This document shows positions 4,053-38,200 of a stretch of 64,000 bases of DNA, piece after piece. Position numbers and translations under genes: made by a program. Source of the stretch: a virus (taxonomy: Duplodnaviria > Heunggongvirae > Uroviricota > Caudoviricetes); IMG/VR virus record IMGVR_UViG_3300026549_000033, positions 64,001-128,000 of that record; one strand, given 5' to 3'. Each line of letters begins with the position of its first letter. The stretch's first letter is position 1. The notes beneath the pieces were generated by a model. The model was not told where the DNA came from. It made no database searches and saw only the letters and a program-made list of their open reading frames with translations.

Positions 4053-4079
4053 TTTTTAAAGAAAGAAGAGGAAAAGAGT

Positions 4080-4500: not shown

Positions 4501-4568
4501 TTCAAAGGTACTATCTGACCATAAAGTAGGTTGGAATAGCTCTGGGGGTCCTACGTGGATTCCCATTC

Positions 4569-4641: not shown

Positions 4642-4645
4642 TATG

Positions 4646-4715
4646 TGTTCAGTAGCTTATGAGTAAAGCGGTTCCCGAAAGGACGCAAATAAGGTGCAAG
4701 TCCTTATCTGAGCGA
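4646..4715 (+). ncRNA. tRNA-like cloverleaf lacking an anticodon loop
   Basis: Acceptor TGTTCAG/CTGAGCG, D arm GCTT/AAGC, T-like arm ATAAGG-TGCAAGT-CCTTAT, central arm capped by GAAA. Confidence 0.55.
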
Positions 4716-4813
4716 AAACGGTGATGCGCACACGTAGGTTCTTGTTATTTCTTACTGAGAAGAAGTATTCCTCTGGTTCTGTCTCGTCCAGTGCTTAAAA
4801 AACGGGGCTGCAT

Positions 4814-4891
4814 GGGTTCATAGCTCAGTTTGGTCAGAGCGCGTGCCTGTCACGCACGAGGTCGAGGGTTCAAGCCCCTTTGGACCCGCCA
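4814..4891 (+). tRNA. tRNA-Asp (GTC)
   Basis: Anticodon arm CGTGC-CTGTCAC-GCACG, G73, CCA. Confidence 0.93.
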
Positions 4892-4900
4892 TATTTACAA

Positions 4901-4975
4901 TGCCAAGTAGCTCAATGGCAGAGCAATGGTCTGTTAAACCATAGGTTATTGGTTCGAGCCCAATCTTGGCAGCCA
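4901..4975 (+). tRNA. tRNA-Asn (GTT)
   Basis: Anticodon arm ATGGT-CTGTTAA-ACCAT, CCA. Confidence 0.93.
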
Positions 4976-4980
4976 TTTAT

Positions 4981-5096
4981 AATCACGATGTACGCAGTCT
5001 TGGAAAATTGTTGGCTATAAGCATAACGGTAAGGTCAACTTCCACGTATGATCAAACCGTTCACAATTTACTTGTACTGGGGAACGTGGAGTGATT
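4981..5096 (+). ncRNA. Candidate compact pseudoknotted RNA
   Basis: Closing AATCAC/GTGATT plus crossing helices AACGGT/ACCGTT, TCCACGT/ACGTGGA, AAATTG/CAATTT. Confidence 0.5.
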
Positions 5097-5102
5097 TAAT
5101 AC

Positions 5103-5512
5103 GGGGGTGACAGGTTTTGACAGTATAAAACTTGGCATTCTATAACAGGTAGAGACGCATGACCTCTTTAAATCGTGTACAATGATAAACGCTAATAACG
5201 TAATCAAAGCTGACTTCGGCTACAGAACTGCTTTAGCAGCCTAAGAAGTAACCTATAACAGAAGCTGTATGTTATAACGGTTAGGCGCAGCACGTGGTAG
5301 TTTACATTGCTTATGTGGAATGTACGTGAACCCGTCTTTAGTTTGACCACAACACAAGACGTTAAAGTTAGGGTTAGTGGTAGACCTCGGAGGATATTTG
5401 TTAGCTTTCTCCAACCGATTAAAGGCTAAAAGGCTAAAACTAACTAAACCTGTAATAATTATAGGTGTAGAGATATATTGGACCGTGGGTTCAATTCCCC
5501 GCACCTCCACCA
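5103..5512 (+). ncRNA. ssrA: tmRNA
   Basis: 5' GGGGGTGACAGGTTTTGAC, 3' T arm and CACCTCCACCA; tag frame 5191-5244 ANNVIKADFGYRTALAA*. Confidence 0.93.
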
Positions 5513-5519
5513 TTTTAAA

Positions 5520-6170
5520 ACTTACAAACGCAGGTACAACTTGGTAAGCACCGAGCTGAAACAAAAAGGGCTTACGACAATTACAGAGGCGACTACATCT
5601 TATTTCAGCATGGCATGGTCGAGAAGTAATCTGATAAAAAAGCGTTGTACACAGACTCCACCTCTCTGTAGTGAAAGTGGAAAACTATAGTTAATGAGGT
5701 TGTTCGGGCTGCTTTCCTCCACCAAAAAGCAGCTTGTCCTAAAGTTTATAGGTAGGAGGGTCCACCTTCAAAGCAAATCCGCGATGGTACTTCAACGGGA
5801 AATTCTCTTGGAGTTGAGATATTCAGAAGCTAAGATACAGGGCCTAAACCTACCCTATAATTAATTGGGATATGAAAAACTTAGAGCTCTTCAGTTTTTC
5901 ATTGAACGACCGCCACCGCAAATGGCGGGATATAAAACGTGACCCTTTTGTTCAGTTTCGCTCACGCAAAATAATTGAAACTGGAGCCAAGTTTACAAGA
6001 AGTGAGACGGGAAAGCATAAGACTGTACTTCAGTACTGCTCAAATGTCCCCTGTGAAGAGAGTCGACTTACTCACAGCACTATACCTATATAGGCGGTCA
6101 TAGGGCTTACAGTGTACCAAAAAACTGAAATAGGTGGTTTTACCCTCGTTTTACATTAAATAATGGGGGG
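5520..6170 (+). ncRNA. Candidate large structured ncRNA (about 650 nt)
   Basis: No credible ORF; crossing 7-bp helices 5534-40/5644-50, 5555-61/5603-09, 5582-88/5664-70 and many hairpins. Confidence 0.55.
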
Positions 6171-6174
6171 TCAT

Positions 6175-6261
6175 GTAGCAGGTATGCAAGTGGTTAAAGC
6201 AAGGGGTGCTAAAACGCCCCGCCTAATTTGGCTTCGTTGGTTCAAATCCAACTCTGCTTCA
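6175..6261 (+). tRNA. Atypical class II tRNA-like element (Leu-like) with non-canonical anticodon loop
   Basis: D arm TGC-AAGTGGTTAAA-GCA, variable arm GCC-TAATTT-GGC, T arm GTTGG-TTCAAAT-CCAAC; loop GCTAAAAC is 8 nt (or 6 nt); no CCA. Confidence 0.6.
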
Positions 6262-6269
6262 CTTTTAAA

Positions 6270-6780
6270 ATCCATGAGCGGTTGCACGCAAAAAGGGTAA
6301 GGCATGTTATACTCGTTTAGCCTTGTTATAGGGATAAAATAATAGACTGGTGGATGAATGATTTTATCTTTGACGAATTAAACATTCTCATTAAGTGACT
6401 AGTGATAGACAACACGATTTTGTAGTTTAAAGGTTTAGAAACTATGCGGTAGTTGCTTACGCATTCCTTTAAGTACTTCTCCACAAAGAAAGAAGGTAAA
6501 GATAACGACCAAAGGAAGGTGCAACACTTCCTTTTTCCAAAATTTATAAAGCTTGGTTGAGCCTTTACATGCCAATGCGCACAAAACTGAAGGCGGTTTC
6601 CACGCGTTGTCTCCTTAACAATGTGTCATAGAGCTGGAGGAGTGCCTATCTGTATAACATAGGACTTCCAAGGTACTAAGGGCATGCATAGTACCTACCG
6701 TGGGTCGCTACAAACCTTTTGGCGAAAAAGAGTAGTGTCGGTTTTCCCGAGTTTCCTGAGCTGAAAAAAACTCGGGTATA
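6270..6780 (+). ncRNA. Candidate structured ncRNA(s)
   Basis: ORF-free run of hairpins, e.g. AAAGGAAG-GTGCAACA-CTTCCTTT, AGGTACTA/TAGTACCT, CCCGAGTTT/AAACTCGGG. Confidence 0.45.
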
Positions 6781-6781
6781 T

Positions 6782-6868
6782 GGGGCGGTGTGCCGAGTGG
6801 CGAAGGCAGCGGACTGTAAATCCGTGACGTAAGATACAACGTAGGTTCAACTCCTACCCTCCCCACCA
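6782..6868 (+). tRNA. tRNA-Tyr (GTA)
   Basis: Anticodon arm GCGGA-CTGTAAA-TCCGT, long variable loop, CCA. Confidence 0.92.
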
Positions 6869-7833: not shown

Positions 7834-7933
7834 TTCCTTTCCTCCATTATACTATAGAATTTAAATGATTCTAAAATTTTGACAAAACTCAAAGTTCATG
7901 CTACAATTGTTTTATAAGAGAGAGGAAAACTAC

Positions 7934-8686
7934 ATGTCAAAATTAATTTGTGGAGACTGCTTAGAAGTTATACCTAAGCTTAAGAATGAAATAGTAGATT
8001 TGGTTGTTACTTCACCGCCTTATAATGTGGACTTAGGAAATAACAAGTACAACAAAAACCCATATAGTTTATATAAAGATAATAAAGAGCATAAAGATTA
8101 TATAGCATGGCTAAAATCAATCTTTGAAGCCATAACTCCCAAACTTAAAAAAGGCGGAAGAGTTTGTATAAATATAGGTGACGGAAAAAACGGGCAAGTA
8201 CCTACTTCTAACGATATATTCAACTTTATGATAGAAATGGGTTATATTCAGCTTGCACATATTATTTGGGATAAAAGCCAAATCGGGAATAGAACTGCAT
8301 GGGGGAGTTGGTTATCTCCTTCGCAACCAAGTTATCCGTGCCCTTTTGAGCACATTCTAATTTTTGGCAAAGAAACTAAGAAGTTACAAGAAACAGGAGA
8401 AACGGACCTAACCCGTGATGAATTCATTAAATATGCTAATTCTCTATGGACTTTTGCCCCTGAGAATAAAGCTAAGAAAATAGGACATCCTGCTCCGTTT
8501 CCTCCTGAGCTACCTTATAGATGTATTAAAATGAACACCTATATAGGAGGAGTGGTTCTGGACCCATTTATGGGTAGCGGAACTACAGGTGTAGTTTGTG
8601 AACAACTTAATAGAAAGTTCATAGGGATAGAATTAGATCCTGTGTATTTTGATATAGCTCAAAAACGAATAAAGGAGATCAAATAA
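7934..8686 (+). CDS. Beta-class N4-C/N6-A DNA methyltransferase
   Basis: ICGDC, VTSPPY before HPAPFP and VLDPFMGSGTT; start reassigned to ATG 7934 after an AGAGG RBS. Confidence 0.9.
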   Translation: MSKLICGDCLEVIPKLKNEIVDLVVTSPPYNVDLGNNKYNKNPYSLYKDNKEHKDYIAWLKSIFEAITPKLKKGGRVCINIGDGKNGQVPTSNDIFNFMIEMGYIQLAHIIWDKSQIGNRTAWGSWLSPSQPSYPCPFEHILIFGKETKKLQETGETDLTRDEFIKYANSLWTFAPENKAKKIGHPAPFPPELPYRCIKMNTYIGGVVLDPFMGSGTTGVVCEQLNRKFIGIELDPVYFDIAQKRIKEIK

Positions 8687-10199: not shown

Positions 10200-10264
10200 C
10201 CTTGCATATTTCTACTTCCTATGATATAATCTTAAAGTTAATTGGTTATAATAGGAGGGAATTT

Positions 10265-11116
10265 ATGAAGTGCCCAAATTGTCAAAGCGATAATGTGCAG
10301 AAAAAAGGGAAAAGGTCAGGGAAGCAAAGATATAGATGTTCTGACTGTGGAGCCAACTTTACAAGAGGTATTGAGTACCGGCCGGCCAAGCAATATCCAC
10401 CTCTTGAAGAAATAAGGTGTCCTCAGTGCAAAGGGGACCATATAATAAGAGATGGTAAATTAGAAGACGGTTCACAAAGGTATCAATGTCAATCTTGTGG
10501 TCTTAATTTTAGTCCTAAGACTGTTTATACCCGTAGAGAGAAAATTCAATGGGATTGCCCTTATTGCGGAGGAACCCTCATTTATTCAGGATATGGTAAA
10601 ACAGGTAACAGGGCATATCTTTGTAAGGGCTGCGGAAAGTCATGCACAGGAGATACTGAAGGTAAACCTGTCAAGAAAGAGCTTCCATTTAACTTAACAA
10701 ATAAGAGTGTGCACTGTCCTCATTGCGGATCTTTAGACTTAAAAAAAGCAGGACACACATCGCAAGGACTTCAGCGCTATGAATGTAATAATTGTAAGCG
10801 CGCTTTCAACGAATGCTCTAAGAAAAGAAAACCTTTAGATAAAGTTATTTCATTAATTTTACAGGGGTACAATGTTAGAAAAGTAGCTAAAGACAGTGGG
10901 TACTCCCCTGAAAGGCTGCGCAAAGTAATGTCCCCTTATTATAAAGCCGAAAAAATTACTAATGAGCAAAGGACGAATATAATAAGATATGGGTATTACT
11001 TAAGAGTTCCTGTGGATTATATGGCTGAGTATGTTAAGTGCTCAGAGCATAAGTGTAAAGAGGTTCTTAGAAAGTTTAAGAAGAATATTATGTCCACCAA
11101 CCACGATGCCATTTAA
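10265..11116 (+). CDS. Protein with four IS1 InsA-like zinc ribbons and a C-terminal HTH
   Basis: Four CPxC...G.QRY.CxxC units; helix GYNVRKVAKDSGYS; start reassigned to ATG 10265 after AGGAGG. Confidence 0.8.
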   Translation: MKCPNCQSDNVQKKGKRSGKQRYRCSDCGANFTRGIEYRPAKQYPPLEEIRCPQCKGDHIIRDGKLEDGSQRYQCQSCGLNFSPKTVYTRREKIQWDCPYCGGTLIYSGYGKTGNRAYLCKGCGKSCTGDTEGKPVKKELPFNLTNKSVHCPHCGSLDLKKAGHTSQGLQRYECNNCKRAFNECSKKRKPLDKVISLILQGYNVRKVAKDSGYSPERLRKVMSPYYKAEKITNEQRTNIIRYGYYLRVPVDYMAEYVKCSEHKCKEVLRKFKKNIMSTNHDAI

Positions 11117-13913: not shown

Positions 13914-14435
13914 GAGAGGGTGTGTATAAAGGGGGGGTGAGTGAAAGGGGTATGGGGAAGGACGAATAGTATGTAGGTATGGTATGGGTAAGATATGTGT
14001 AAGGTGAAGGTAAGATATAAGTAAGATTAAGGTAAGGTATGTGTAGGGTATGTGTAAGAATAAGGGTGATACCTAAATGAAAAGTTCCCGAAAATCTTGA
14101 AAAAATGTGTGTGGGTCTTAACAACACACCACCCCCACCCTTCCCCTTTGGTTCTGTCGCCGTTGAAAAACTTCAAAACCCACACACCACAACCCATCCC
14201 ACCACACCATCCACCGCAAACCCACTAACAACAACCCATCCCACCTCTCATATCCTACAAATCCACCAACTACACGGCATCCCGTCACCCCACCCACCTC
14301 AAACCCTCACACTGCAAGCCATGCCACCCACATCCACCTACACCGCATCCCACAAACCCACTAACAGTAAGGCATCCCACCTCTCATATCCTGTAAACCC
14401 ACACACCACAAGGCACACCACCATCCGCATCCTGT
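13914..14435. other. Non-coding strand-asymmetric region (G-rich then C-rich) with internal direct repeats
   Basis: One C in 13914-14071; G-poor 14121-14435; AAACCCACTAACA and CATCCCACCTCTCATATCCT each twice at 136-bp spacing. Confidence 0.8.
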
Positions 14436-15856: not shown

Positions 15857-15985
15857 CCCACCCCATTAAGATTTAATTCCCATAGAGAGTGCCATCCCAT
15901 TTCGATTGCCTCAGCACTCAATAACTGTAACTGTTTTCGAGGGTTATACCTATATGAAAGTTTTCTATGATTTTGATTTTTAATT
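15857..15985. repeat. About 130-bp non-coding element, copy 1 of 3 (others 18747-18876 and about 23375-23472)
   Basis: Shared blocks CCCACCCCATTAAGATTTAATTCCC, GATTGCCT, GAGGGTTATACC.ATATGAAA, GATTTTGATTTTTAATT. Confidence 0.8.
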
Positions 15986-18666: not shown

Positions 18667-19000
18667 TTACTCTCTCTCTCTTAACTTCAATTACTTTATA
18701 GGGTACTACTCACCGCAGTAGTACCTCTTTGTTTTGGGTTTTTACTCCCACCCCATTAAGATTTAATTCCCTGTAGAGAGGAGCCAACCCATAACGATTG
18801 CCTACTCCTCAATAATAACTTAACTTTCAGAGGGTTATACCCATATGAAAGATTTGATTGATTTTGATTTTTAATTCCGAGCCTATTTAACCTTGACAAA
18901 TTTACACAGGCATGTTCTATGGATCCATGCCTGTTAATAACCTTGCACATACTTTATAAATCTATTATAATATAAGTATAAAAAGAAAGAGGAAAAACAA

Positions 19001-23336: not shown

Positions 23337-23643
23337 GGGATTTTCTGCCACACCCAAGAGAGCCACATTTCGCGAGAAGCCAACCCATCATGATTGCCTG
23401 CTTCTCATATATACTTTAACTTTCGAGGGGTTAAACCTATATGAAAAATTCCTATGATTTTGATTTTTAATTATGAATGATTTTTATATTTGACTTTCCA
23501 AAAGTTATAACCGAAGTTATGGAAATAACCTTGACAAATTTACATGGGCATGTTCTCAGATCCATGCCTGTTAATAACCTTGAACATGCAAGGGTAATCT
23601 GTTATAATATAAATGTAAGCAATAAAGAAATGAGGTACAAACT

Positions 23644-24570: not shown

Positions 24571-25919
24571 AAGTCCTGGGGAAACCCTTTCCCCATAAGG
24601 CTTTGCAACCCCTCAATTCTATATGCTTACACTGGTGAAACCCTCTCTATGAGAGGGTAAAGCCATACGCAATTTCAAAATCAACCTCTGGGGAACCCCT
24701 TGCACCACAAGAGCTTTGCCATAGAATGATTTTTATTTTACACTCTCAAACCCCTGCACCATAAGGATTTCCCCATAGATTTTAACAAAACTTAATTAAA
24801 TTTGATTAAATAATTTGACACACTTTAAAATAGGTGATATAATAAAAAGGCTAAAAATTAAAACTCTCTCTCTTTAAGAAAGCTCAAGAGATATATAATA
24901 TAAAAAGAGCTTTGAAGTCTGTAGTTATCCGCTACAGGCTTTTATATTTATTACATTATAAGAGTAGAAAAACTAAATAAGAGAATATAAGAGTTCTTTG
25001 TCCCTTATTCTTTCTCACTTACTTATCTACTTTTATACTTCGGGATATTTCGTACCCACTCTCTCTTTGTTACACTGGTAGATAGCAAAAGTAAGTGAGT
25101 TTTCTTATATAACCTTGACAAATTTACATGAGCATGTTCTAAAATAACCTTGACTATTATACCTATTTTGTGTTATACTTAATCATATAATGGTTAAGTA
25201 TAACACAAAACGAATTGACCTTACACATAGCACATTATACTATATACATAACACCACACCAACAGGAAGAACCCACTGCATATAACTGCACCTTGCATAA
25301 GTACTGTAAAGCCACGCACCACTCCTCTGACACAGAGAACCTTATGCAACCCCACAGAGCTAATGCAATAGTGCATATATATATACATGTATAAGAGGAC
25401 ACCATGAGAATATGCACGCATATACATATAAGAGGACACCATGAGAATATACATGCAAAATCAAATAAAAGTTATTCCAAAGTACATATTAAATTATATA
25501 GTGTAACAAGAGAAATGTTACGAGCAAACTAAATACAATTACAGAAAGTCCTGAAAACAGGCACAGGGCTTGCTTTTTTATGCCACCGCACCCACTTTCC
25601 CTTACAACCACAGTTACTTTACACTTCTTAATAATCCACCAAAATACACTAATTCCTCACATCTCTCACCCAAATCCCTTGCTATACTTACTATTCCACC
25701 TATTTTATATCTACCCGATATAAACCTTTACAAACCTATCTATTCGATATACCGCATAGATATATCTACCCGATACATATTACCACCACAAGTCTTATCT
25801 ATTCTTAATTTCCATACTTTTCATATATCTACACGATATATCTAAAAGGTACATTCTTTACTTTTCTTCATATTTTATGGGATAATATATTCATACCCCT
25901 TTGACTATACTACATGAAA
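24571..25919. other. About 1.35-kb non-coding interval separating class A and class B arrays
   Basis: No credible ORF; orphan promoter TTGACA 24815; 23-bp direct repeat at 25391/25428; G-poor tracts. Confidence 0.75.
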
Positions 25920-25982: not shown

Positions 25983-28771
25983 ATGACAATCTATATTACA
26001 CTTACTACTTTCTGTAACATTAAAGACAGAGATAATGTAGACGGTAAAGGAAAGTTATACAGGTATAATAACAAAAGAATTACCAGAAATACTTTTCTTA
26101 AACTTCTTCATTATCTTAATAAGGATAAGGGAAACAAATACATTTTAACAGAACATAATATAGAAACTTCTTCTAATTATATTACTAATGAGAAATATAT
26201 TACCCATATTTACAGGTGGCAACTTCCTATTATTCATCACCCTTTCTTACCTTAAAACAAAACTTATATTAACCTTGAACATAAATACAATACATGTTAT
26301 AATAATAGTATAAGAAAAACAAAAGGAGTTAAATCTTATGGACAATATGAAAGATAAATACATGCTTGACAGAGCAGGACAAGACTATAGACCTAAAGAA
26401 GAAAAACCTAGACATATCTTTTTCTTTAAAGGACACTATATTATGATAAGTGAAGACTATAGAGATGTATGGGTACTTACAAGGAATTCTTATTTTTCTA
26501 CTCATAACAATTCTTTAGACGAGTCTTTAGTTCAAGGTATGGAAGAAGTCTATAATATAAACAAAAGAAACTATGACAGAGAAATAGAAAGAGAAAACAA
26601 AGAAGAAAAAGAAACTGCTATAAGGGAACAATTAGAGCCTTATATGAAAGTTATTATTAAAGAAATTATGGCAAGTAAAGAAAAATAAACCTTGAACATA
26701 AATACAATACATGTTATAATAATAGTATAAGAAAAACAAAAGGAGTTAAAATACTATGAATATTATAGAAAGCATGGAGTCAACAGGTACAATATATCTA
26801 TTAAGATACTCAAGAGGTTACTCATCACAACCCGACGAACTCTTAACTGAAAAAGCACTAATAAATAATGCTGACTGCTCTGCTTATTGTACTGGCTATG
26901 ACAGTATTTGCACCTTAGAGGATGCTATCGAATACTATGAAAGCATAGGTTATGAAATCTATAAACTAACAAATATTCAAGTAGAACACTTAACAAAATA
27001 AAGGAGTTAAAATCTTATGGGAATACATACTATATACATGCAAGATAAATCTATACACCACATACAGGAAGAACATAGAGGTATTATATACTCTTATATA
27101 TCTAACATACAACAGGATAATATCTTTGCTATTATTAAATATACTATGCCTTTAGAAATAGAGAATATATTCAAGAATAGAAATAATATATCTCATACTA
27201 TAAATAACAGGGATACTTTATACATAGCACTTACTTATTCTAATAACAGGTATTATCTTACTATGGATATATGTCAATCAGAGGACTTGGACTATTCTCA
27301 TACAGAGGTATTAAGAATTATAGGCTCAAATATAGATAATGTAATGAGAGCATATCAGAAATTTTATACTACTTCTACTTTCTATAACAGAATTTTATCT
27401 GCTATTAGAGGGGATGCATGCCAGTGGTACTCTTATATAGATGCAGACGAAGAAGAAAATCAAAGGAGTTAAATACTATGGCAAAAATTATAGCAGAAGT
27501 TACATATAGCTTTTATGCAAATACTATTAACAGAGATAAAAATGTGCAAATAGTTACTTCTGAAAATGAAAAGAGCTATTACTGTCAGGCAATAGGAACA
27601 CCCTTTAAGAAAGACAAAGAGAATAAAGTACAGTTTATTGTAGGCGGAGTTGTGCCTTACCTATCTGTATTTAAAACTACTACTATTACAGAAGAAGACT
27701 TTGCAAACGGAAAAATAAAGCAATATGTAGTAGACAACCTTAATGCTGAATTAGTAGAAATCATGAAAGAAGGATTAAAAGAAATACTTGAAAATGTAAA
27801 TATAAAATAACCTTGAATTTTGTCATACTTATCTGTTATAATAATAGTATAAGGAATCAGTTAAACAGAAAACAAAGGAGATAAACTTATGAAAACCATA
27901 GACGTAGATATTGTTAAAGCAATTATCAATTATGTAAATAACGGTAATTCTAACTACAAAGAATTTGCAAGACTTATGTCTTATGAACACAGGACACTTC
28001 AACAACAATTTACTAAGTTATGTATAGCATGGCTTAAGGAATTATCTGAAACTGAAAACTATGACCTTAGAAATGAGGGAAGTGTTAAATTTGCAAAGAG
28101 TGTTAAAGACAAATTAGTAAACTTGCCTTTAATATAATATAGAAAAATAACCTTGAACTTAAATACAATACATGCTATAATAATAGTATAAAACAAAGGA
28201 GTTAAACTATGAAACAATTTTTATGTATATGGGATAAAGAAGTATTCCACACAGAAAACATAACAGAAATTAAAGGTATAGAATTCTTTACTCTTGGGAA
28301 TGGGTATAGTAAAGAAGAAATAGAAGATATAAATAACATGGAAGTCGGAGACTTATACAATACCCCTACATACCCTAATCAGCATATTATTACAAGGATA
28401 AAGGATATATAATCTTAATAAATCTTAATAACCTTGAACATACAAATAAAATCTGTTATAATATAAATGTAAGCAGTTAAAACAAAGGAGTTAAAATCAT
28501 GTACATCAACAAAGTTATTTTTATGGAATTTGACGAAATTGGAAACTTAGATACTAAATACGGAGACCAAATCGTACAAAGAACTGACTACGGCACAACA
28601 GAAATCTTAGCTGACACTATTCAAGACCTTATTGCAGACCTTGAAGGTGATAATGCAGAAGAATACAACTTTACTAAAGAAGAACTATTGGAAGACCTTA
28701 ACAATTCTTTAGGTACTGACGTAGTAGAACTATTACTAAATGACGGCTTGGACTTCATCTTAGTAGTATAA
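25983..28771 (+). CDS. Block of 8 hypothetical class B genes (25983-26255, 26338-26688, 26756-27001, 27017-27472, 27478-27810, 27889-28137, 28209-28412, 28499-28771)
   Basis: Each ORF follows a class B repeat or its RBS; 27478 start reassigned. Confidence 0.8.
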
Positions 28772-28810
28772 CCTTGAACATTAAAAAGAAACATGCTACA
28801 ATAGTATTAT

Positions 28811-28868
28811 AAGGAATGGAAGGGAATATTCGCCCCTTTGGAGTATAGCGACAGGTACTCACATTCCC
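28811..28868 (+). promoter_or_regulatory. 58-bp structured leader element, copy 1 (identical copy 36526-36583)
   Basis: Three-way junction GGAATG/CATTCC, AAGGG/CCCTT, GAGTA/TACTC, between promoter and RBS. Confidence 0.75.
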
Positions 28869-28895
28869 CTTAATAAAATAAAAGGAAATTAAACT

Positions 28896-30082
28896 ATGAC
28901 AAAAGAAATTACATACGCAATTATAGTATACGAGTATCACTCTTTAGACAAAGAAGAATACACCTTATACGGAATAAATAAGGATAGACTACAAAAGACT
29001 ATAGCTGACTGTCTTAAAGAAAATAAATGCTTTAAGGTAGCAGTTTTTGACGGAGAATAAGGAAATGGAGAACACGCAAAAAACTTTCACAATAAAATTA
29101 CATACCACTAATACAAATATTGACAGAGAAACAATCAGAGAATTTCTAAATAATGCTATTGAAAATAGTAGTCTTAAAGAAGACTTAACTTATAGTGTAG
29201 ATGAAAAAGTCGGAGTATTATTTAATTTCTTGAACGATACTATGGCTTTCAGCTCTTTTATAAGAAACACAAAAGAAGACTTCTTAGAGGACTACCCATA
29301 TTTTGCAGAGGAGTATGACTTCTGCTTATCAGAATTCAATAAGCATAAACAAGATGCTCTCATAACCTTCTTAGAAAACACAAGTACCAAAGAACTTACA
29401 GAACCTTATGGCTTATTACCTAAAGACTTTGGGTATTGTGTAGGACAATATATTAAAAACAATATGACACAGGAAGAACAAATCGAATTTTTGAAAGTTA
29501 TAGCAAGTAAAGGACTAAGAATAGAAATTTATTAAAATAACCTTGAACATTAAAAAGAAATATGTTATATTAAAAGTACAAAGTGGTTAAAGCAAAAAGC
29601 GAGTTACACATTAAACAACTCAACACTCTTTGGCACATGCGTCAGAGTATAAAGAATAAATGCGGACGAACGTCTTTCGGGAATTTCTAACATCAAGCAC
29701 AAAACAGTAAATTCCCACTGTATAATAAAACAAAGGAGTTAAAATCATGGGCTTAGACTTAACAATCAGAACACAATCAAACTTTACAACAAATGAAAAA
29801 GGACAGGACACTTGGACTGTTACATGTATCGGAAACTTAAGAAATTGTTGGGAAATCTTAGAAGAAATACAGAACTACACCGAATTAAACAACTGTACTA
29901 CTGTTTCTGTATATGGCAAACACTTCCACAAAATCTTGGAAGACCTTAAAGAAGAACTTCCTACTTTAGATAAAAACAAAGCAGACGTAGAATACGAAAT
30001 TAAATGTCTTGAAGAACTTATTAAAGAGAATAATATTGAAGACAATGACATGGAAAGTTACGAGGTTCATGCTTGGTTCTAA
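28896..30082 (+). CDS. Hypothetical genes 28896-29060, 29065-29535, 29747-30082
   Basis: ORFs with RBSs; the first (54 aa) is not in the track and the second start is reassigned. Confidence 0.75.
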
Positions 30083-30414
30083 AAATTAGAGACCACTCAC
30101 AAGCTCAAGAAGGCACTTAAAATATATAAGGACATAAAAGAATACCTAACTAATATAAAAATCCTCAAGGAATTAAAGCAGACCACCTTAAATAAAGAAA
30201 TAAATATAAGGAGACCACACAAAATGCAAATAGAATTATATGACAAAGTACAAATAAAAGCTCTCTTATCAGAAGGAGACGACACCTACACGGTAGTTAC
30301 AAGAACTAAAGACCGTGAAGGTAATGTAATGTTTGCTTTAGAGGACGAAGACGGCTTTTTATTAGAAGAAGTATTTTACCCCTCTCAACTAATCAAAGTA
30401 CAGGAGAATGACTA

Positions 30415-30795
30415 ATGACAACCGCAGAAAAATTATCATACGAAGAATTCAATAATAACTTAGACCAATTCATAGGTAGCATGAACTTCTACCCTGTAGC
30501 TTTCTCACATATTATATTTACAGACGGTATAAAGTACTTTGCTGAAACTTGTGAATGCTTTTGGCTATTAGACCTCATCGTTTATAACTTGGAAAGAATA
30601 CACAGACAACTTGGTGCTTTATTCATAGACATTGAAGTAAACAAAAGGCACACAGTACACATAACAGTTAGGGAAGACAAAGACATGCCTATAGTATTTG
30701 AAAAGAAACAAAGAGACCTTTGTAAAATAATACCTGTAGGCACATACAGATTCTACCTTATGGATAACACTTTATTATTACCCTCTGAATATTAA
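30415..30795 (+). CDS. Conserved hypothetical protein (DUF6876-like)
   Basis: FTDGIKYFAETCECFWLLDLI motif, recalled family resemblance. Confidence 0.55.
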   Translation: MTTAEKLSYEEFNNNLDQFIGSMNFYPVAFSHIIFTDGIKYFAETCECFWLLDLIVYNLERIHRQLGALFIDIEVNKRHTVHITVREDKDMPIVFEKKQRDLCKIIPVGTYRFYLMDNTLLLPSEY

Positions 30796-30813
30796 CTTGA
30801 AAGGAGTTACACT

Positions 30814-31284
30814 ATGGCTTGGAAGAACACAGATATTGAAAAAATTAGAGAATACAACCGACAATACTATCAAAAGAAAGTAAAAGAAAAACGTGCAAAA
30901 GAAAAAGCAGGACGTAGCATAACTAAGGAATGTCCTATATGCCACACTACTTTTACAACTGATAAGCCAAATCAAAAGTATTGTTGTGATGCGTGCAAGA
31001 AAATTTCTGTTAAAATCAAAGGAATTATTTACAGAAGAACTCAAGAATACAAAGACAAATTAAATGAATACAGGCACTCTGACAAATTCAAAGAACAACA
31101 AAAACAATACAGACAAAGTGAAAAGTACAAAGCATACAGAAAAGAATATGTAAAGACAGACAAGTATAAAGAAATTGCTAAAAGATATTTACAGTCTGAC
31201 AAAGGTAAAGCTACTTTACAAAGGTATGCAGAAAAAAGAAAAGCAAACGGTTGGAAACCGCTTAAAACAAGCAAAGAAGAATAA
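30814..31284 (+). CDS. Basic protein with a CxxC...CCxxC zinc finger and about 13-aa helical repeats
   Basis: CPICHTTF...YCCDACK followed by repeated Y..(S/T)(D/E)K.K units. Confidence 0.7.
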   Translation: MAWKNTDIEKIREYNRQYYQKKVKEKRAKEKAGRSITKECPICHTTFTTDKPNQKYCCDACKKISVKIKGIIYRRTQEYKDKLNEYRHSDKFKEQQKQYRQSEKYKAYRKEYVKTDKYKEIAKRYLQSDKGKATLQRYAEKRKANGWKPLKTSKEE

Positions 31285-31350
31285 CCTTGAACTTAAATAA
31301 TAAATCTGTTATACTAATAATGTAAACAGAAAAACAAAGGAGTTAAAGCT

Positions 31351-34300
31351 ATGGCAAGAACTGTAGAATTAACAGGAGACGAATTAAACTTTCTCCTAAC
31401 AAACAAAGAAATAAATGTACCTACGGCAAGCAGAAGTATTCAAATCTTTACAAATAAAAACGAGAAAGAACTTCTCTTGAACTATGAAGGACAAGGTTAC
31501 AGACCTATTAAAGTTACAATAGAATTCGAGTATGACGAAAATATTCACTTTTCAGAAGGAGACGACTAATGAAAGAACCTTTAGAACTAACTGAAAAAGA
31601 AAGAGACATCTTATTCTCTTTATTATTAAAAGAAATAAGAGATATAGATAACTACAATGCAGTAGTACAGGCACACTTGAAATCTTACAAGGAAGACTTA
31701 CATACAATCTATAATAAAATTGTAGCTAACATGGACGAGGACTAATCAATGTTTGACAGAACCAAAGACCAAATAAAGAAAAAGAAATCAGAACAAGTTA
31801 TAGTAAACGGCAAGGCTTGGGATAAGGAAAGTCTCAAAGACTTATTAGACAGGAATGACAAAGCCGTGTATCGTGCAATACTTCTTATCTATAGTTTTCA
31901 AACAGACGAAGAAAAATACATGGGTACTACAAAAACTGTAAACGGAAAAGGCTTTAGCAAATTTGACGTGGAAGTCTTATCAAGTTTTGCTATGCAATTA
32001 CGCAGAGGACAGGAACTCACACTCAAACAAATGTACGTAGCAAGACCTAAAATTAAAAAGTATGTAGGACAAATCCTACAGTATATGAAAGACAGAGAAG
32101 AAAATAAATAACCTTGAACTTAAATAATAAATCTGTTATAATAAATATGTAAACAGAAAACAAAGGAGTTAAAATCATGACAGAAAACGGAACACTTAGA
32201 GTATATCATATAAGAAACGGACATATTGCTCATCAAGGAAATGTTACAAGTCCTATGCAAGCTATTGCACTTATAGAACAATGGGCAGACGATGACCTTC
32301 ATAATCCGAACGTATCTTTCAATGCTTTTGGCTTGGAAGTCTATGACGACACAGACCTTCCCGAAGGAGACAAGGGAACTAACGAAGGTTGGAGTGAATG
32401 GTATAACAGTGAAGGACAGGACATAGCTGAACTCATGGATAACATTGAGGAAATGCTACAATAACCTTGAACTTAAAAATAAAATACGTTATAATAAATA
32501 TGTAAACAGATAAAACAAAAGGAGTTAAATCATGGGGCAAAGAACCGCAATATTATTAAAGAAAAATTTTGGAAACAACAGAAGTACAATCACACTCATT
32601 CATCACCAATGGGGTATAGGTAAAGTAATGCCTTCTATCTTTATGCAAGAAGTATTGAAGTTGGCTTATCCTATGAATAGAAGTCTTGAGTCTTTCTACA
32701 TAGGAGACTTAAAAGAAAAGAATAAATTACCTATAGACTATTTCTTTACCTTTGAACCTTTGAGCAACACTGACAATAACTATATTACAAACAAAGAAGT
32801 TGCTACAGATGATCCGAATGAGGATATATGGAGACAAGAGGTCAGAGTTAGATATGGAAGACAAACAGATAACAACAACGGACTTATGCTCGTTGAAGTT
32901 ACACAGAACTATGATAAAGAAGGAATGCCTGAAACCTATGGACACATGCTATCTGTTAAAGTTGGCTTTGCTCTTGGCTCGGAAGAAATCTCAATAGAAC
33001 ACCCACACTTACAACGTTGGATAGACGTAGAACCTGAATTTGTACGTCTTGTTAGTATGGAAGAATATGTCTTGAGAACCTTTAGGAGTCGTGATGAAGA
33101 AGTACAAAAGTACTCAAAGAAATTTGTTAAGGCATGCAGAACTCTTATGGAACTTGAAGACATTGAAGAAGTCTATGACAAGAAGGGTTTAAAGAAACGT
33201 GAAGAACGTGAACAACATATCTTGAATTGTATAGACGGACTTACAAAGGACTTACCCGACGGAGTTGAAATAGAAGTACCACTTGAATTTCAAGAAGTAC
33301 AAAACTTATATGTATAGGAGACAAGACCATATAAAATAACCTTGAACTTAAATAATAAATCTGTTATAATATAAATGTAAACAGAACAAAAGGAGTTAAA
33401 ATCATGGCAGACAATGTTACTACAAACTTTACAGAAGAATCTTTAAAAGTTGGAAATACAGTTTATGTTTCTTTAGGCACAGACGACGAAGACTTGGCTG
33501 ACTACCTTGAAGAACACGGAGACCAAATTACTATTACAGAAGTAGAACTTGACGGAGACGAACCCACAGGAAACTTTTGGGGAATATCTGCTGACGGTGA
33601 GGACTGCCCTTACCACTTAGAATGGAGAGACGTCTATGCCGTAGACGTAGATGCCGTAGAAAACTTGGCACTTAAAGTATTTAAAAACTTATCTAATAAA
33701 GAAGTCATAGAGTACACTTGCACGGCAATTAACTCTCTGCAATCAACAGGGGAACCTTTAGACTTATCACAAACAACCACTATTAAAGTCGTTCAATCCT
33801 TCATTATTGACACCCTCATTACAAACGAAATCCGTGAAGGGTTTAGAAATGCAATCACAGGGGAACTTGAATAACCTTGAACATGTAAATCAAATCTGTT
33901 ATAATAAATATGTAAACAGTTAAAACAAAAGGAAGTTAAAATAAAATGAAATGCACAAACAATCAATACAAAAAATTTACAATAAAAAGTTTACTTAACT
34001 CCTTAGAAGAAATAATGGCTCGGAATCCAGAGATAACTTTGGACTCCGAAGTCATTATCTCCGACGTCAACATGAGCTTTTTTAAACAGGAAGTTAAAAT
34101 TTATCCTACACACGACTACAAAGACAGACAAATGAAAGTAGGAATTTATCTCAACCCTTATGAAAAAGACGAACTCATAGACACAACGGAAGAAGAACCT
34201 AAGGAAGAAATAAAAGAAGTAAACCCACACAATGCACAAGCTATTAAACAAATCACAGAAGAACTCTCACAGGTAAATCAACCACAACCACAAGAAGAAC

Positions 34301-34359
34301 CACAACCTATTAAGCAAGATATGAGCTTGGCTTGGATAGATAAGTACACACGGAGATAA
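31351..34359 (+). CDS. Block of hypothetical class B genes (31351-31569, 31749-32111, 32177-32464, 32532-33317, 33404-33874, 33946-34359)
   Basis: ORFs behind class B repeats or their RBSs. Confidence 0.8.
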
Positions 34360-34363
34360 ACTT

Positions 34364-35182
34364 ATGACACAAACTATACAGGAAGTATTTAAACAATTTT
34401 GTAAAGAAAGACACGCAGAGGACAAAGGAAGAAATCATGACCTCTTGCAAGAAGTCTATGCAAGTACGGAATTCTTTGATACAACCTTGTATAAATTTGT
34501 AGGTATAGAATATGACTTTGACAAATTCAATAGCAGAACCTACATGGCTTACTTCTCCACAGAAGACTTATGTATTCCTTTTCAAAATAACTTTATTAAA
34601 ATAGAAGAAAACAAATACATATTCTTGAGAGAGTATGCCCCTGATATCCTGACAGGCACAATGTTTATACCTAACTACATAGACAAAGTATCTTTAAACA
34701 TTCCCTTTAGGATAGAAATAGGAGAGAAAACCTCTGTAATTATATCAGACTTTTATGTAGATATATTAAAAGATAGAATAGAAAGAATAGTCAGAGACTT
34801 ATTTGTAATAGTTATATCAGTATGTAAAACCTTAAGCGAACTTTCAAAGAAGTCTGTAGCCGTTGATAAACCTTCAAATCCAAACCTATGTGAATACTAC
34901 AGAAGGAAAAGAAAACCCACAATTAAAATACCTCAAAGACCTATATATTATATTCTTGGAGAAAAGCATGAGAGTGTATCCGCAAAGTATAAATATATAA
35001 GAACTATAGGAAACTTAGAATATTCTTTTGCCTTCAAAGTTAGAGGACATTGGAGACATATTAACGAAGGAACTTTTGGAAAAGACCGCAACGGAAATTA
35101 TAATGTTAAAGGCTATACTTGGGTTACAGAATATACAAAGGGAGAAGGAGAACTCGCAAAAAGAATAAGAGTTATAGAATAA
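34364..35182 (+). CDS. Conserved phage hypothetical protein
   Basis: C-terminal FKVRGHWRH...WV..YTKG motif seen in phage proteins. Confidence 0.7.
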   Translation: MTQTIQEVFKQFCKERHAEDKGRNHDLLQEVYASTEFFDTTLYKFVGIEYDFDKFNSRTYMAYFSTEDLCIPFQNNFIKIEENKYIFLREYAPDILTGTMFIPNYIDKVSLNIPFRIEIGEKTSVIISDFYVDILKDRIERIVRDLFVIVISVCKTLSELSKKSVAVDKPSNPNLCEYYRRKRKPTIKIPQRPIYYILGEKHESVSAKYKYIRTIGNLEYSFAFKVRGHWRHINEGTFGKDRNGNYNVKGYTWVTEYTKGEGELAKRIRVIE

Positions 35183-35242
35183 CCTTGAACATTAAAAAGT
35201 TATCTGTTATAATATAAATATACAAAACAAAAGGAATATACT

Positions 35243-38200
35243 ATGAGAAACAAATCAGAATACATTAACAACAGAATTGAAAAACTTTTTGGAAAAGTCG
35301 GAAGACGTAAAGGAGACTTTTATTGTTATGGCTCGTCTATTGCAGAAGTTGTAAATGACGGTGGCGGTATTCATATTGTACTCACAGGAAGAACTACTAC
35401 AGACTTAATAGAAAAACTTGATGCAATAAACGACTATATGAACTTTAAAAAGTATCAAGAAAGCAAGTCGCCCGAAGAAAGCATATAGGCAGAACCCGCA
35501 CAGTACTTGGCTTTCCACAGGTGAAACCTAATCAAAAAATTTCATGAAATTTTGAAATTTATATAAGGACAAAATAACCTTGAACTTAAATAATAAATCT
35601 GTTATAATATAAATGTAAACAGAACAAAAGGAGTTAAAATCATGACAAAAGGAATTACAAACAGAGTTAAAATTCAGAAGTTTATAGACGTTCTTAATAC
35701 TCTGACCTTTGAAGAAGTTACGGAAGAAAATCTTAAAAAAGCACTTCCAAATTCAAGAGTGGACTTTGTGAATAAGGTTGAAGAAGACATGACTGACATT
35801 TCAATAGACGACTATACCTTTACTATTCACAAAAAAGTAATAGGTGAAAAATACCCTATAGAATGGGTACTTATTGGAGCAGACACAGACCACCCATATT
35901 TCTTATCTGACTATGTAGAAGTTTACCTTCCTATACAAGAAGACGATAGTACCATGTATTGTGAAATACAAGCTGAAGGCTACATTGAACCACATAATTC
36001 GGGAAAAGAATTTTGGCTTAGACTTCATTTCTACAATAATTAAAAATAACCTTGAACTTAAATAATAAATCTGCTATAATATAAATGTAAACAGAAAAAC
36101 AAAAGGAGTTAAAATCATGTTATTAGGAACATTTTTGACAGACGTAGACAAAGCATACGACTTTCTACAATTAACTAAAAAAGAATTCTTGGAAAGCTAC
36201 TCATACTTAACAGAACAAGAATACGACGAAACAAATGCTGAATTCTTATCAGATAAAACAGGAAACTTGGCAGAACTCATGAGGGATGCTGAAAACATGC
36301 TTATCGAAGAAAACACATATTTTGACAATGAAGATACAAACCCATACAGAGGTGCAACAGTAACAGGTGAACAACTTAAATCAGCCGTATACTGTTATAC
36401 CGTAGAACACTTAAACAAAGAGGAACAACAGGAATTTGAAGAAATATGTGAAGACATGGGTTGTTAAAATAACCTTGAACATACAAAGAAAACCTGTTAT
36501 AATATAAATATAAACAGATAAAACAAAGGAATGGAAGGGAATATTCGCCCCTTTGGAGTATAGCGACAGGTACTCACATTCCCTTATACAAAACAAAAGG
36601 AGTTAAATCATGGAAAACAAAATTGAAATTATTATGTCTGATTCAAATGATAACGACATAAACATAGAAGAAGACTTTGAAAAAGCCGTAGAAAGACTTT
36701 ACGAAGTAGACAAAGTATTTACAAGAGACGAAGTACAAGAAATGCTATACAAAGCAAGAGCTATTGCTGAAAACTTGGACGTATTAGAAAAACAAGCCTA
36801 TCAAGAAGGTAAAGAAACACAAGCTGAAATAGATGGTAAACCTATGAATGAACAATGGATACAGGATTCAAAAGAAATCCCAAATACAAAACGTATCCTT
36901 ATTGATATAGACTGTGCTTACGACGAATTCTATCTTATGCACGATAAAGACAACCTTCTTCCAAATTCTTGCAATTCTGTAGAAGTTGTAACAAAAGAAG
37001 TTGCAGAATCTAACGACAGAGACATGGATGCTACAGAGGACGAAGAAAATTATAAGGTAGGAGAAGGTCTCTCATACTACAGAGAACTTGGAGACAGTGG
37101 CTACTACTTTAGGTTTATGTAAAGGAGTTGTACTATGAACAAAGAAGAATTATTTAGAAAAATTAAGAACTTTTCAAGAAATGACAATGGCAGAATTATT
37201 CTCGGTGATATCCTTGAACTTCGCATATCAGAAGACGGAGAAAACCTTGACGTTTATAAGTACACTAACTTAGACAACGTAAATATTGAAGAATATGACT
37301 TTGACGGAGACTATATAACTTCAATATATCTCAAATAATCCCGAACGGTAATAAAAGTACAAATCAGATAATATATTATCTAAAATATGCCCGAACGGTA
37401 ATAAATAGCTAATATATTATCTATAATAAAATAACCTTGAACATACAAATCAAATCTGTTATAATATAAATGTAAACAGAAAAACAAAGGAGTTAAAATC
37501 ATGGCAGTAATTTTAAAAGACACAGACGTTAAAGAAACAAATTCAAAGTATGGCTATGTCGTAGAAATGTTTGACACAGTAGAAGACTTCAAAGGCTATA
37601 TCAGAGAAGAACTCTTAAATATTAGAAGAAATCTTAGAACTGACGGCATGGAAGACGAGGAATTAGATACTTTAATAGAAAAGAACTTATCAAATTGGAG
37701 CTTTGCTACCTTGTATAACAAATACAAAGAGTATAACTTTGCGTATGAGTTTGAAATCATATAAGGAGATAAGACATGACAAAGAAATGCCTATCAAATA
37801 AAGAATTTCAAGAGGTATTAGAACTCTTAGGAAAACAAGTTTTCCGAAATGGTACAATACACTATGTAGACCACTCAAAGAGATACCACTATGCCCTCTT
37901 TGTATATTTCCCCGAATATTCTGAAAAAGTACTTGACGTTATGGCAGATAAATTCGGAAGAAACATAGACTTTGAAACAGTACATGTACCAAACAAGGAC
38001 TTTTCAAAGTCTGAAATAGAGGACTACACAGAAATTTATAAATTAAACAACAGATTCACAATTACAGAGCAAACACCCATACTTGAATTAAAAGTGCGTG
38101 GGTATATTAACGAATACAAATAAGGAGTTAAAATCATGAAAAAAGAATATACATCAACAGTAGACGGACTTATAGAAGTACTCACAAAAATTAAAGAAAA

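What the first reader, a model, noticed from the sequence alone, without database searches (positions are those of the whole stretch)
28811..36583. Identical 58-nt three-way-junction RNA inserted into two unrelated leaders 7.7 kb apart
Seen: 28811-28868 equals 36526-36583, each between the -10 box and the RBS. P1 is GGAATG/CATTCC, P2 AAGGG/CCCTT, P3 GAGTA/TACTC; the loops AATATTCGC and TAGCGACAGG can kiss via TCGC/GCGA. Established: purine riboswitches share this topology, but the junction nucleotides here do not match, and the hammerhead core is absent. Inference: a portable regulatory or protective RNA module (new aptamer, nuclease block, or protein decoy).
Basis: partly seen in the sequence, partly recalled or inferred. 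Interest (0 to 1): 0.7.

Follow-up and report, generated by a model that had tools for sequence, protein, structure and literature searches.

The report
New kissing-loop RNA module in phages
The identical 58-base repeat is a real, previously uncatalogued folded RNA that unrelated phages carry just upstream of genes; its three stems vary in a compensating way while its two loops never change, so it is under selection, but what it does is not yet known.

Summary
Observation confirmed. 28811-28868 and 36526-36583 are identical. They are the only two copies in a 195-kb rumen phage, and each lies between a strong early promoter and an RBS of unrelated genes.

The element is not a neutral duplicate. 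Two unrelated phage lineages (marine L087/L019; L066) carry the same motif: a three-way junction with invariant loops AAUAUUCGC and AGCGACAG (closed by U·G) but different stems. 11 of 18 pairs show double compensatory changes, 96% of cells pair, and 0 of 500 shuffles match this. P2 and P3 keep equal length, and the loops can form a 4-bp UCGC/GCGA kiss.

Rfam 15 gives no match even at E≤10, and 185,579 prokaryote genomes hold no copy with these loops. Near relatives of the other two phages lack it at the same site, so it is sporadic and portable. It is always on the sense strand in a non-coding gap, 27-28 nt before the AUG in three of four contexts.

Function is unresolved. My best guess (about 0.4) is a cis-acting leader module that affects stability or translation of the next cistron through its rigid loop-loop surface. 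Rivals are a host-factor decoy, a new ribozyme and a new riboswitch. Kissing could not be tested by covariation because the loops are invariant.

The parts
28811..28868 (+). Element copy 1 (58 nt). P1 28813-28818/28862-28867; P2 28819-28824/28834-28839; L2 28825-28833 (AAUAUUCGC); J2/3 G28840; P3 28841-28846/28855-28860; L3 28847-28854 (AGCGACAG); J3/1 A28861.
36526..36583 (+). Element copy 2, identical. P1 36528-36533/36577-36582; P2 36534-36539/36549-36554; L2 36540-36548; P3 36556-36561/36570-36575; L3 36562-36569.
28774..28802 (+). Early promoter of copy 1 (TTGAAC-17-TACAAT, TG-extended). The inferred start is about 28809-28811, so P1 begins 3-5 nt from the 5' end.
   Evidence: start site inferred from usual spacing
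36475..36503 (+). Early promoter of copy 2 (TTGAAC-17-TATAAT). The inferred start is about 36510, leaving roughly 18 single-stranded nt before P1.
   Evidence: start site inferred
28868..28898 (+). Spacer, SD (AAGGA, 28882-28886) and ATG (28896) of the 54-aa gene. There are 28 nt between the end of P1 and the AUG. CCUU at 28868-28871 is predicted to pair weakly with the AAGG of the SD.
36583..36612 (+). Spacer, SD (AAGGAG, 36597-36602) and ATG (36610) of the 170-aa gene. There are 27 nt between the end of P1 and the AUG.
28896..29535 (+). Genes led by copy 1 (54 aa, then 162 aa). No family assignment; only a sub-threshold EF-P OB hit.
36610..37338 (+). Genes led by copy 2 (170 aa, then 67 aa). 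No family; unrelated to the copy-1 genes.
28816..28848 (+). Mini-ORF inside the element (AUG GAA GGG AAU AUU CGC CCC UUU GGA GUA UAG). Its stop is the UAG of L3 and its AUG abuts the old SD with 0-nt spacing. The same occurs at 36531-36563. It is probably not translated here.
   Evidence: read; compared with L066

Best explanation
The repeat is a member of an uncatalogued family of small structured RNAs carried sporadically by unrelated phages.

Fold. On the mRNA sense strand it forms an almost perfect three-way junction. P1 is followed directly by P2, then one purine, then P3, then one purine, then the return strand of P1. P2 and P3 have equal length. Their terminal loops (AAUAUUCGC; AGCGACAG closed by U·G) are invariant and can pair with each other through UCGC/GCGA. 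The predicted shape is a rigid 'tuning fork' like that of the purine aptamer, but with no junction pocket.

Mobility. The module is autonomous and portable. In this phage it sits as a roughly 73-nt insertion at the Shine-Dalgarno sequence of two otherwise generic early leaders.

Mechanism I consider most likely (inferred, not shown). It acts in cis at the RNA level on the cistron that follows, which starts 27-28 nt downstream. The folded body would be a barrier or insulator at the 5' edge of the ribosome-binding region. The invariant loop-loop surface would be recognised by a universally conserved partner, such as the 30S platform or a ribonuclease. The result would set the stability or translation of the downstream message, constitutively rather than as a metabolite switch.

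How likely. That it is a real, selected, structured RNA family: about 0.9. That it works in cis on stability or translation of the downstream cistron: about 0.4.
For: Structure and selection
- A model built only from the window copies finds L066 at 55 bits (E about 1e-12) and L087 at 30 bits.
- About 57 decoy loci that carry both exact loops score 20 bits or less.
- The L087/L019 lineage was found with the L2 hairpin alone and still has the full L3 10-mer in place.
- On three distinct sequences, 96% of cells pair and 11 of 18 pairs change on both sides. No shuffle in 500 reaches this, and slid registers give at most 5 such pairs.
- The invariant U·G and the G·U pair point to RNA on this strand; the opposite strand folds worse.
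- P2 and P3 have equal length in all lineages.
- A relative that differs by 3-15% in the flanks has no change in either copy.

Portability
- Copy 2's leader equals the generic leaders at 37428 and 36043 plus an insertion after AAACAAAGGA that ends in a second AAAAGGA. Copy 1 shows the same pattern.
- Relatives of the L066 and L087 lineages lack the element at the orthologous site and anywhere in their records.
- The three phages share no protein near the element.

Context
- The element is always on the sense strand in a non-coding gap.
- The distance from the end of P1 to the AUG is 28, 27 and 28 nt in copy 1, copy 2 and L066.
- The L066 gene behind it has no SD, although other genes of that contig do, and its orthologue without the element has GAGGAGG.
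- The junction is the MFE in all leaders and leaves the RBS mostly open.
Against: - Only three independent lineages are known. The two window copies are not independent for the spacing argument.
- In L087 the AUG is about 57 nt away, with an extra hairpin in between.
- A possible diverged copy (L023) sits after the last gene of an operon with no downstream cistron. If it is real, it argues against any role tied to the next gene.
- A simple nuclease barrier or insulator does not need 17 invariant loop nucleotides.
- No partner has been identified.
- The kissing interaction has no covariation support, because the loops never vary.
- No transcript ends could be read, since the RNA runs are held only as contigs.
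Confidence: 0.42

Rival explanations
1. Decoy or recruiter for a conserved host macromolecule, acting independently of the neighbouring gene. Examples would be an inhibitor RNA of a host nuclease or defence protein, or a put-like RNA that modifies the transcribing RNA polymerase. It would ride on abundant early transcripts.
For: - The loops are invariant across phages that share no protein, which implies a universal partner.
- The motif was seen only in phages. No structured copy exists among the 25 exact-loop hits in 185,579 prokaryote genomes.
- It is sporadic and has no gene association.
- There are two copies behind strong early promoters.
- In L087 it lies about 255 nt downstream of a consensus promoter, after a first small ORF.
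- The possible L023 copy at an operon end would fit this model.
Against: - No partner is known.
- No + strand terminators lie downstream in this phage that a put-like element would need to override.
- The 27-28 nt spacing to the AUG would be coincidence.
Confidence: 0.2
2. A new class of small self-cleaving ribozyme whose active site is built by the two invariant loops.
For: - The size (about 58 nt), the 17 or more invariant unpaired nucleotides, the covarying stems, the pseudoknot-like loop pairing and the sporadic intergenic distribution in phages without gene association all resemble twister, pistol and hatchet contexts. That resemblance rests on general knowledge.
Against: - No similarity to any ribozyme model in Rfam, even at E≤10.
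- No cleavage evidence: could not show RNA ends.
- Most conserved small motifs are not ribozymes.
Confidence: 0.12
3. A new riboswitch aptamer. A ligand would bind at the loop-loop interface and stabilise P1, changing access to the RBS or formation of a downstream hairpin.
For: - It has a purine-aptamer-like topology with invariant unpaired nucleotides.
- It lies directly upstream of RBSs.
- In L087 the following hairpin contains GGGGCGAA, the exact complement of UUCGCCCC (the 3' half of L2 plus P2). This could be a mutually exclusive structure.
- In copy 1, CCUU after P1 pairs with the AAGG of the SD.
Against: - The downstream genes are unrelated and unannotated.
- The motif is absent from bacterial genomes and sporadic in phages.
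- The junction has only 0, 1 and 1 unpaired nt.
- The L087 alternative fold is 8 kcal/mol worse than the MFE.
- No comparable alternative pairing exists in copy 2 or L066.
Confidence: 0.12
4. Leader-peptide device. A short ORF that reads N-I-R-P through L2 and stops at the UAG of L3 is translated, and its translation unfolds the structure or couples ribosomes to the next gene.
For: - The same frame is open in the window (MEGNIRPFGV*) and in L066 (MIKIQIQVERNIRPLGL*), and the stop is the L3 UAG in both.
- In L066 the mini-ORF has a typical SD at about 11 nt and starts 1 nt after the upstream stop, while the next gene has no SD.
Against: - In the window the AUG abuts the SD with 0-nt spacing.
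- In L087 the frame does not stop at the UAG.
- The conserved CGACAGG and the compensating 3' strands of P3 and P1 lie after the stop, so coding cannot explain them.
- The L066 SD-AUG is more simply the stranded original start site of the 350-aa gene.
Confidence: 0.06
5. No RNA function: a recent neutral duplication, or a DNA-level site such as a protein-binding site, promoter or ssDNA signal.
For: - The two copies are identical, which alone would also fit a recent duplication or gene conversion.
- GCGACA in L3 is weakly -35-like.
Against: - The duplication predates the split from a 3-15% diverged relative.
- Unrelated phages keep the loops while changing 11 of 18 pairs in a compensating way.
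- The conserved U·G pair favours RNA.
- The element is in the sense orientation in every context.
Confidence: 0.03

Closest known systems
Purine riboswitch aptamer (Rfam RF00167) and its variants
   Same: Three-way junction with P2 and P3 of equal length lying side by side and joined by a loop-loop interaction. Small size. Located in a 5' leader.
   Different: The junction strands are 0, 1 and 1 nt instead of the conserved ligand-binding core. Conservation sits in the loops, not the junction. No Rfam score. No association with purine genes. Not found in bacteria.
Phage phi29 pRNA (RF00044)
   Same: A phage RNA with a three-way junction and two loops carrying a 4-nt complementarity.
   Different: pRNA loops pair between molecules to build a ring on the packaging motor, and it is a free-standing 120-174 nt RNA. 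Here the element is embedded in mRNA leaders of early genes, and equal P2/P3 lengths favour pairing within one molecule. No Rfam match.
HK022 putL/putR antitermination RNAs
   Same: Two near-identical structured RNA modules per phage genome, each shortly downstream of an early promoter. They act without gene-specific context on a universally conserved host machine.
   Different: put consists of two tandem stem-loops, not a three-way junction with complementary loops. No terminators were predicted downstream here. Not tested.
Exonuclease-resistant RNAs (xrRNA) of flaviviruses and plant viruses; 5' stabilisers of Bacillus phage SP82 and ermC
   Same: Compact viral three-way-junction or pseudoknot folds, or leader structures, that protect the RNA downstream. 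Fold-critical nucleotides are highly conserved.
   Different: xrRNAs thread the 5' end through a ring built with junction nucleotides. Here the only predicted tertiary contact is L2-L3. No Rfam match. No decay data.
Kissing-loop leader RNAs of phage homing-endonuclease genes
   Same: An uncatalogued, portable phage leader RNA with a three-way junction and loop-loop pairing, repeated before unrelated genes.
   Different: In those leaders one loop pairs with the RBS held in another loop, and the genes are nucleases. Here neither loop contains or pairs with the RBS, the genes are not recognisable nucleases, and a sequence look-up found no look-alike.

Membership tests
Purine riboswitch (RF00167) | Covariance-model score at or near the gathering threshold | tested here: not met
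   cmscan of 28700-28960 at E≤10 returns only a spurious miRNA hit. The whole window at gathering threshold gives only tRNAs and a tmRNA.
Purine riboswitch (RF00167) | Conserved J1/2, J2/3 and J3/1 nucleotides forming the ligand pocket | tested here: not met
   The junction strands are 0 nt, 1 purine and 1 purine in all three lineages.
Purine riboswitch (RF00167) | Three-way junction with an L2-L3 tertiary contact | tested here: inconclusive
   The three-way junction is supported by covariation. UCGC/GCGA complementarity exists, but the loops are invariant, so there is no covariation. Scans for covarying variants found none.
Hammerhead, twister, twister-sister, pistol, hatchet and hairpin ribozymes | Match to the family model, or presence of the conserved catalytic core (e.g. 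CUGANGA...GAAA) | tested here: not met
   No Rfam hit at E≤10. The core sequences are absent from the 58 nt.
Any self-cleaving ribozyme | Site-specific self-cleavage | not testable with these tools
   The RNA runs are held only as contigs, so no 5' or 3' ends are visible.
tRNA-like / tmRNA / Y-RNA tRNA-like domains | Detected by ARAGORN or the Rfam tRNA clan; T-loop and D-loop consensus | tested here: not met
   ARAGORN and Rfam find tRNAs and a tmRNA only at 3.1-6.9 kb.
phi29-type pRNA (RF00044) | Model match; free-standing RNA next to packaging genes | tested here: not met
   No Rfam hit. The element is inside early-gene leaders.
Flavivirus and plant-virus xrRNA | Model match; pseudoknot between the 5' end and the junction forming a ring | tested here: not met
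   No Rfam hit. The junction has no spare nucleotides to pair with the 5' end. Resistance itself was not testable.
HK022 put RNA | Cis-acting modification of RNA polymerase to read through downstream terminators | not testable with these tools
   Only indirect evidence: no + strand intrinsic terminators were predicted at 27.5-38.5 kb.

The most novel reading that the evidence does not exclude
The motif is a new functional RNA class restricted to phages. It could be a new self-cleaving ribozyme, a phage-only riboswitch, or an RNA decoy that neutralises a universally conserved host nuclease or defence factor. In each case the active or binding site would be the invariant L2-L3 kissing surface.
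Probability: 0.4. Interest if true: 0.85.

Novelty: new variant of a known kind. Interest (0 to 1): 0.66.

Why it matters
Small RNAs with about 17 invariant nucleotides and fully covarying stems have often turned out to be ribozymes, aptamers or specific protein-binding sites.

This one is absent from Rfam 15 and from one genome each of 185,579 prokaryote species. It occurs in phages from at least a bovine gut and two other metagenome sources, and those phages share no detectable genes. Its partner must therefore be something common to very different hosts, or the RNA itself.

At 58 nt it is small enough for immediate biochemical tests and structure determination.

If it is a portable stabiliser or translation module, it is also a candidate part for synthetic biology. 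If it is a decoy, it would add to the few known RNA-based phage counter-measures.

Tried and rejected
- GenBank phages: no match by megablast with the 9.5-kb region or by blastn with the 71-nt element.
- Rfam: nothing at gathering threshold or at E≤10.
- Literature search for the loop sequences and for similar phage motifs: only primers and unrelated papers.
The S-restricted version and a scan freeing the non-kissing loop positions returned only known members plus chance or coding hits. The kiss therefore remains untested.
- Exact-loop scans: metagenomes added only L066, and the genome collection added no member at all. All other hits lack the stems.
- Protein-guided search for relatives of the L087 and L066 lineages: four more contigs, none with the element.
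- Shared protein partner: blastp of all ORFs of L066, the 28-kb marine contig and the 195-kb phage found no protein common to all three.
- Reads: only contigs were available, and they break at the repeat. They give no information on RNA ends or on variants inside the element. No conclusion drawn.
- rRNA complementarity: abandoned, because only a partial 16S could be fetched. The 9-nt GGGAAUAUU resemblance to 16S, recalled from memory, is within chance.
- Complementarity of the loops to other parts of the phage genome: at chance level. A third TAGCGACAGGT at 3936 has no surrounding structure.
- L087 'switch': the fold that pairs GGGGCGAA with UUCGCCCC is 8 kcal/mol worse than the MFE.
- L023 candidate: scores only 19.8 bits, and RNAfold prefers a different P3. 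Not counted as a member.
- Protein atlas for the downstream genes: uninformative.


Full report
**1. The observation**

Positions 28811-28868 and 36526-36583 are identical over 58 nt (D14). The window is bases 64001-128000 of a 195,221-bp IMG/VR phage record with direct terminal repeats. A DNA search and a covariance-model search of the whole record find only these two copies.

Sequencing runs that hold the region are almost all labelled bovine gut metagenomes. The region from 15 to 42 kb is a typical early, host-takeover block. It has dozens of small + strand genes, each behind a copy of the cassette ATAACCTTGAAC-N17-TATAAT plus a short A-rich leader with AAAGGAG.

Both element copies lie between such a promoter and an RBS.
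- Copy 1: the -10 ends at 28802. The SD is at 28882-28886 and the ATG at 28896.
- Copy 2: the -10 ends at 36503. The SD is at 36597-36602 and the ATG at 36610.

The genes that follow (54 and 162 aa; 170 and 67 aa) are unrelated to each other and match no family.

**2. The fold**

P1 is GGAAUG/CAUUCC. P2 is GAAGGG/CCCUUU, directly abutting P1. After G30 comes P3, GAGUAU/GUACUC, with a closing U·G. A51 precedes the return strand of P1. The loops are AAUAUUCGC (L2) and AGCGACAG (L3). The opposite strand folds worse. The junction stays the MFE in the full leaders.

**3. It is an insertion**

The copy-2 promoter and leader align base for base with the generic leaders at 37428 and 36043. The exception is a segment of about 73 nt inserted after AAACAAAGGA, which ends in a second ...ACAAAAGGA. 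Copy 1 shows the same pattern in the short leader type seen at 28145. The module thus sits at the Shine-Dalgarno sequence and brings or recreates an SD behind it.

**4. Homologues elsewhere**

Rfam 15 has nothing, even at E≤10. GenBank phages have no match.

Pattern scans gave the following.
- (a) A closely related rumen phage contig (L014/L037 = L075/L080) carries both copies unchanged, although its flanks differ by 3-15%.
- (b) A contig from marine-labelled viromes (L019 = L041 = L087) was found with the L2 hairpin 15-mer alone. It nevertheless carries the complete L3 10-mer at the right distance.
- (c) A 6.1-kb metagenome contig (L066) also carries the motif.

A covariance model built only from the window copies scores L066 at 55 bits (E about 1e-12) and L087 at 30 bits. 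About 57 decoy loci that contain both exact loops at similar spacing reach at most 20 bits.

On the three distinct sequences, 96% of cells are standard pairs and 11 of 18 pairs have changes on both sides. No shuffle in 500 reaches these values, and slid registers give at most 5 such pairs.
- P1 is GGAAUG/CAUUCC, CAAGUG/CACUUG or (GA)UCUUUAG/CUAAAGA(UC).
- P2 is GAAGGG/CCCUUU, GAAAGG/CCUCUC or UAGCGGG/CCCGCUA.
- P3 is GAGUAU/GUACUC, GUUUGU/GCAAAC or G·GUCU/GGAC·C.

The closing U·G of P3 and the two G-C pairs closing L2 never change. P2 and P3 have equal height in each lineage. The junction is always 0 / purine / purine. The U·G and G·U pairs and the sense orientation everywhere argue for RNA on this strand.

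**5. Distribution**

With these loops the motif was found in no genome of 185,579 prokaryote species. It was found in only three lineages across the viral and metagenome collections.

Moderately distant relatives of the L066 and L087 phages have short ordinary intergenic regions at the orthologous sites and no copy elsewhere in their records. The three carriers share no detectable protein near the element. They also differ in G+C content and RBS usage. The module is therefore sporadic, portable and under strong selection on every loop nucleotide.

Scans that freed the putative kissing positions or the other loop positions found no variants. One of these scans was truncated. The UCGC/GCGA kiss therefore remains a structural inference, supported only by the complementarity and the equal stem lengths.

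**6. Context clues**

The element is always in a non-coding gap, on the sense strand.

The distance from the end of P1 to the next AUG is 28 nt in copy 1, 27 nt in copy 2 and 28 nt in L066. In L087 it is about 57 nt, with a GNRA-capped hairpin in between.

In copy 1 the inferred transcription start puts P1 3-5 nt from the 5' end. In copy 2 there is a tail of about 18 nt.

In L066 and L087 the element follows the stop codon of the preceding gene by 18 and about 8 nt.

In L066 the 350-aa ATPase-like gene behind the element has no SD, although other genes of the contig do. Its orthologue in a relative without the element has GAGGAGG. The old SD-AUG now heads a 16-codon ORF that runs through the element and stops at the UAG of L3.

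The window copies contain an ORF in the same frame (MEGNIRPFGV*), but its AUG abuts the SD. L087 does not stop at that UAG. Nucleotides after the stop are equally conserved. Coding therefore cannot explain the motif.

In L087 the hairpin after the element contains GGGGCGAA, the exact complement of UUCGCCCC in L2/P2. The alternative fold is 8 kcal/mol worse than the MFE.

A possible diverged copy (L023) has an exact L2, L3 AGCGAUAG and P1 GGCGGU/ACCGCC. It lies after the last gene of an operon, but it scores only 19.8 bits and RNAfold prefers another P3. I do not count it.

**7. Interpretation**

Shown:
- A new, selected, structured RNA family with a three-way junction and invariant, mutually complementary loops.
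- It is portable between unrelated phages and leaders.

Inferred:
- The loops pair within one molecule to give a purine-aptamer-like tuning fork.
- The invariant surface is the functional site.
- Its partner is common to very different hosts, or is the RNA itself.

The position at the 5' edge of ribosome-binding regions, the near-constant spacing, and the SD-less gene in L066 lead to my favoured model. I favour a cis-acting leader module that sets stability and/or translation of the next cistron (about 0.4).

The alternatives are:
- a gene-independent decoy or recruiter of a host factor (0.2);
- a new self-cleaving ribozyme (0.12);
- a new riboswitch (0.12);
- a leader-peptide device (0.06);
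- no RNA function (0.03).

**8. Comparison with known systems**

The closest in shape is the purine riboswitch aptamer, but both its defining junction core and its model score were tested and not met. The phi29 pRNA, HK022 put RNAs, xrRNAs and the kissing-loop leaders of homing-endonuclease genes noted earlier in this scan share single aspects only. None is a family match. The earlier-noted leaders pair a loop with the RBS, which this element does not do, and a sequence look-up found no look-alike.

**9. Verdict**

The finding is a real new RNA motif of unknown function. It is modestly sampled (three lineages) but has unusually clean covariation and loop invariance. It merits an exhaustive Infernal search and simple bench tests.

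Noticed in passing
window 15400-42600: More than 40 copies of an early promoter-leader cassette (ATAACCTTGAAC-N17-TATAAT, A-rich leader, AAAGGAGTTAAAATCATG) each precede one to three small genes. This is the layout of a host-takeover region. A few copies point the other way, at 49.1, 52.9 and 60.1 kb.
   Followed up: partly
window 15887-15985, 18778-18876, 23374-23472, with 51-nt units at 15977, 16593, 18868, 20756, 23506, 25090: A second repeated non-coding module. A roughly 99-nt unit begins with a GAGGAGCC...CTCCTC hairpin. It is followed by a different promoter-like box, ATAACCTTGACAAATTTACATGGGCATGTTCT. This may be another structured leader or a regulatory site.
   Followed up: no
window 3149-6868: A phage-encoded tmRNA (5103-5512, tag ANNVIKADFGYRTALAA) lies in a cluster of eight tRNA genes. 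One is an odd 88-nt tRNA-like gene with a two-base 'anticodon' call, at 6175-6262.
   Followed up: no
window 14195-14426: A C/A-rich degenerate tandem region (CATCCCACC...CCACC repeats; units of about 53-96 nt at 60-74% identity). It is very unlike the AT-rich remainder of the window.
   Followed up: no
window 25383-25456: Two tandem 37-nt units (ATACATGTATAAGAGGACACCATGAGAATATGCACGC) at 86% identity.
   Followed up: no
window 3936-3946: A third occurrence of TAGCGACAGGT (the L3 sequence), just upstream of tRNA-Glu. It has no L2 and no surrounding three-way junction, so it is probably chance (about 0.05 expected per strand).
   Followed up: yes
L023:3767-3830 (+), IMGVR_UViG_3300005573_000006: A possible diverged relative of the motif. 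L2 and its closing pairs are exact, L3 is AGCGAUAG, P1 is GGCGGU/ACCGCC and J2/3 is long. It starts 1 nt after the stop codon of the last gene of an operon. It scores weakly (19.8 bits) and has a competing P3.
   Followed up: partly
L066:3625-3678 (-) and window 28816-28848, 36531-36563: A short ORF in the same frame runs through the element (…N-I-R-P-F/L-G-V/L-stop) and ends at the UAG of L3. In L066 it carries a normal SD and starts 1 nt after the upstream stop, while the 350-aa gene behind the element has lost its SD.
   Followed up: partly
L087:11663-11685: A GNRA-capped hairpin GGGGCGAAAGCCCC follows the marine copy. Its 5' arm is the exact 8-nt complement of UUCGCCCC in L2/P2 of the element.
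   Followed up: partly
window 10202-11116: A 304-aa ORF with a transposase-like region (phrog_1191, E 5e-21) lies inside the phage genome, next to a DNA methyltransferase gene (7898-8686).
   Followed up: no
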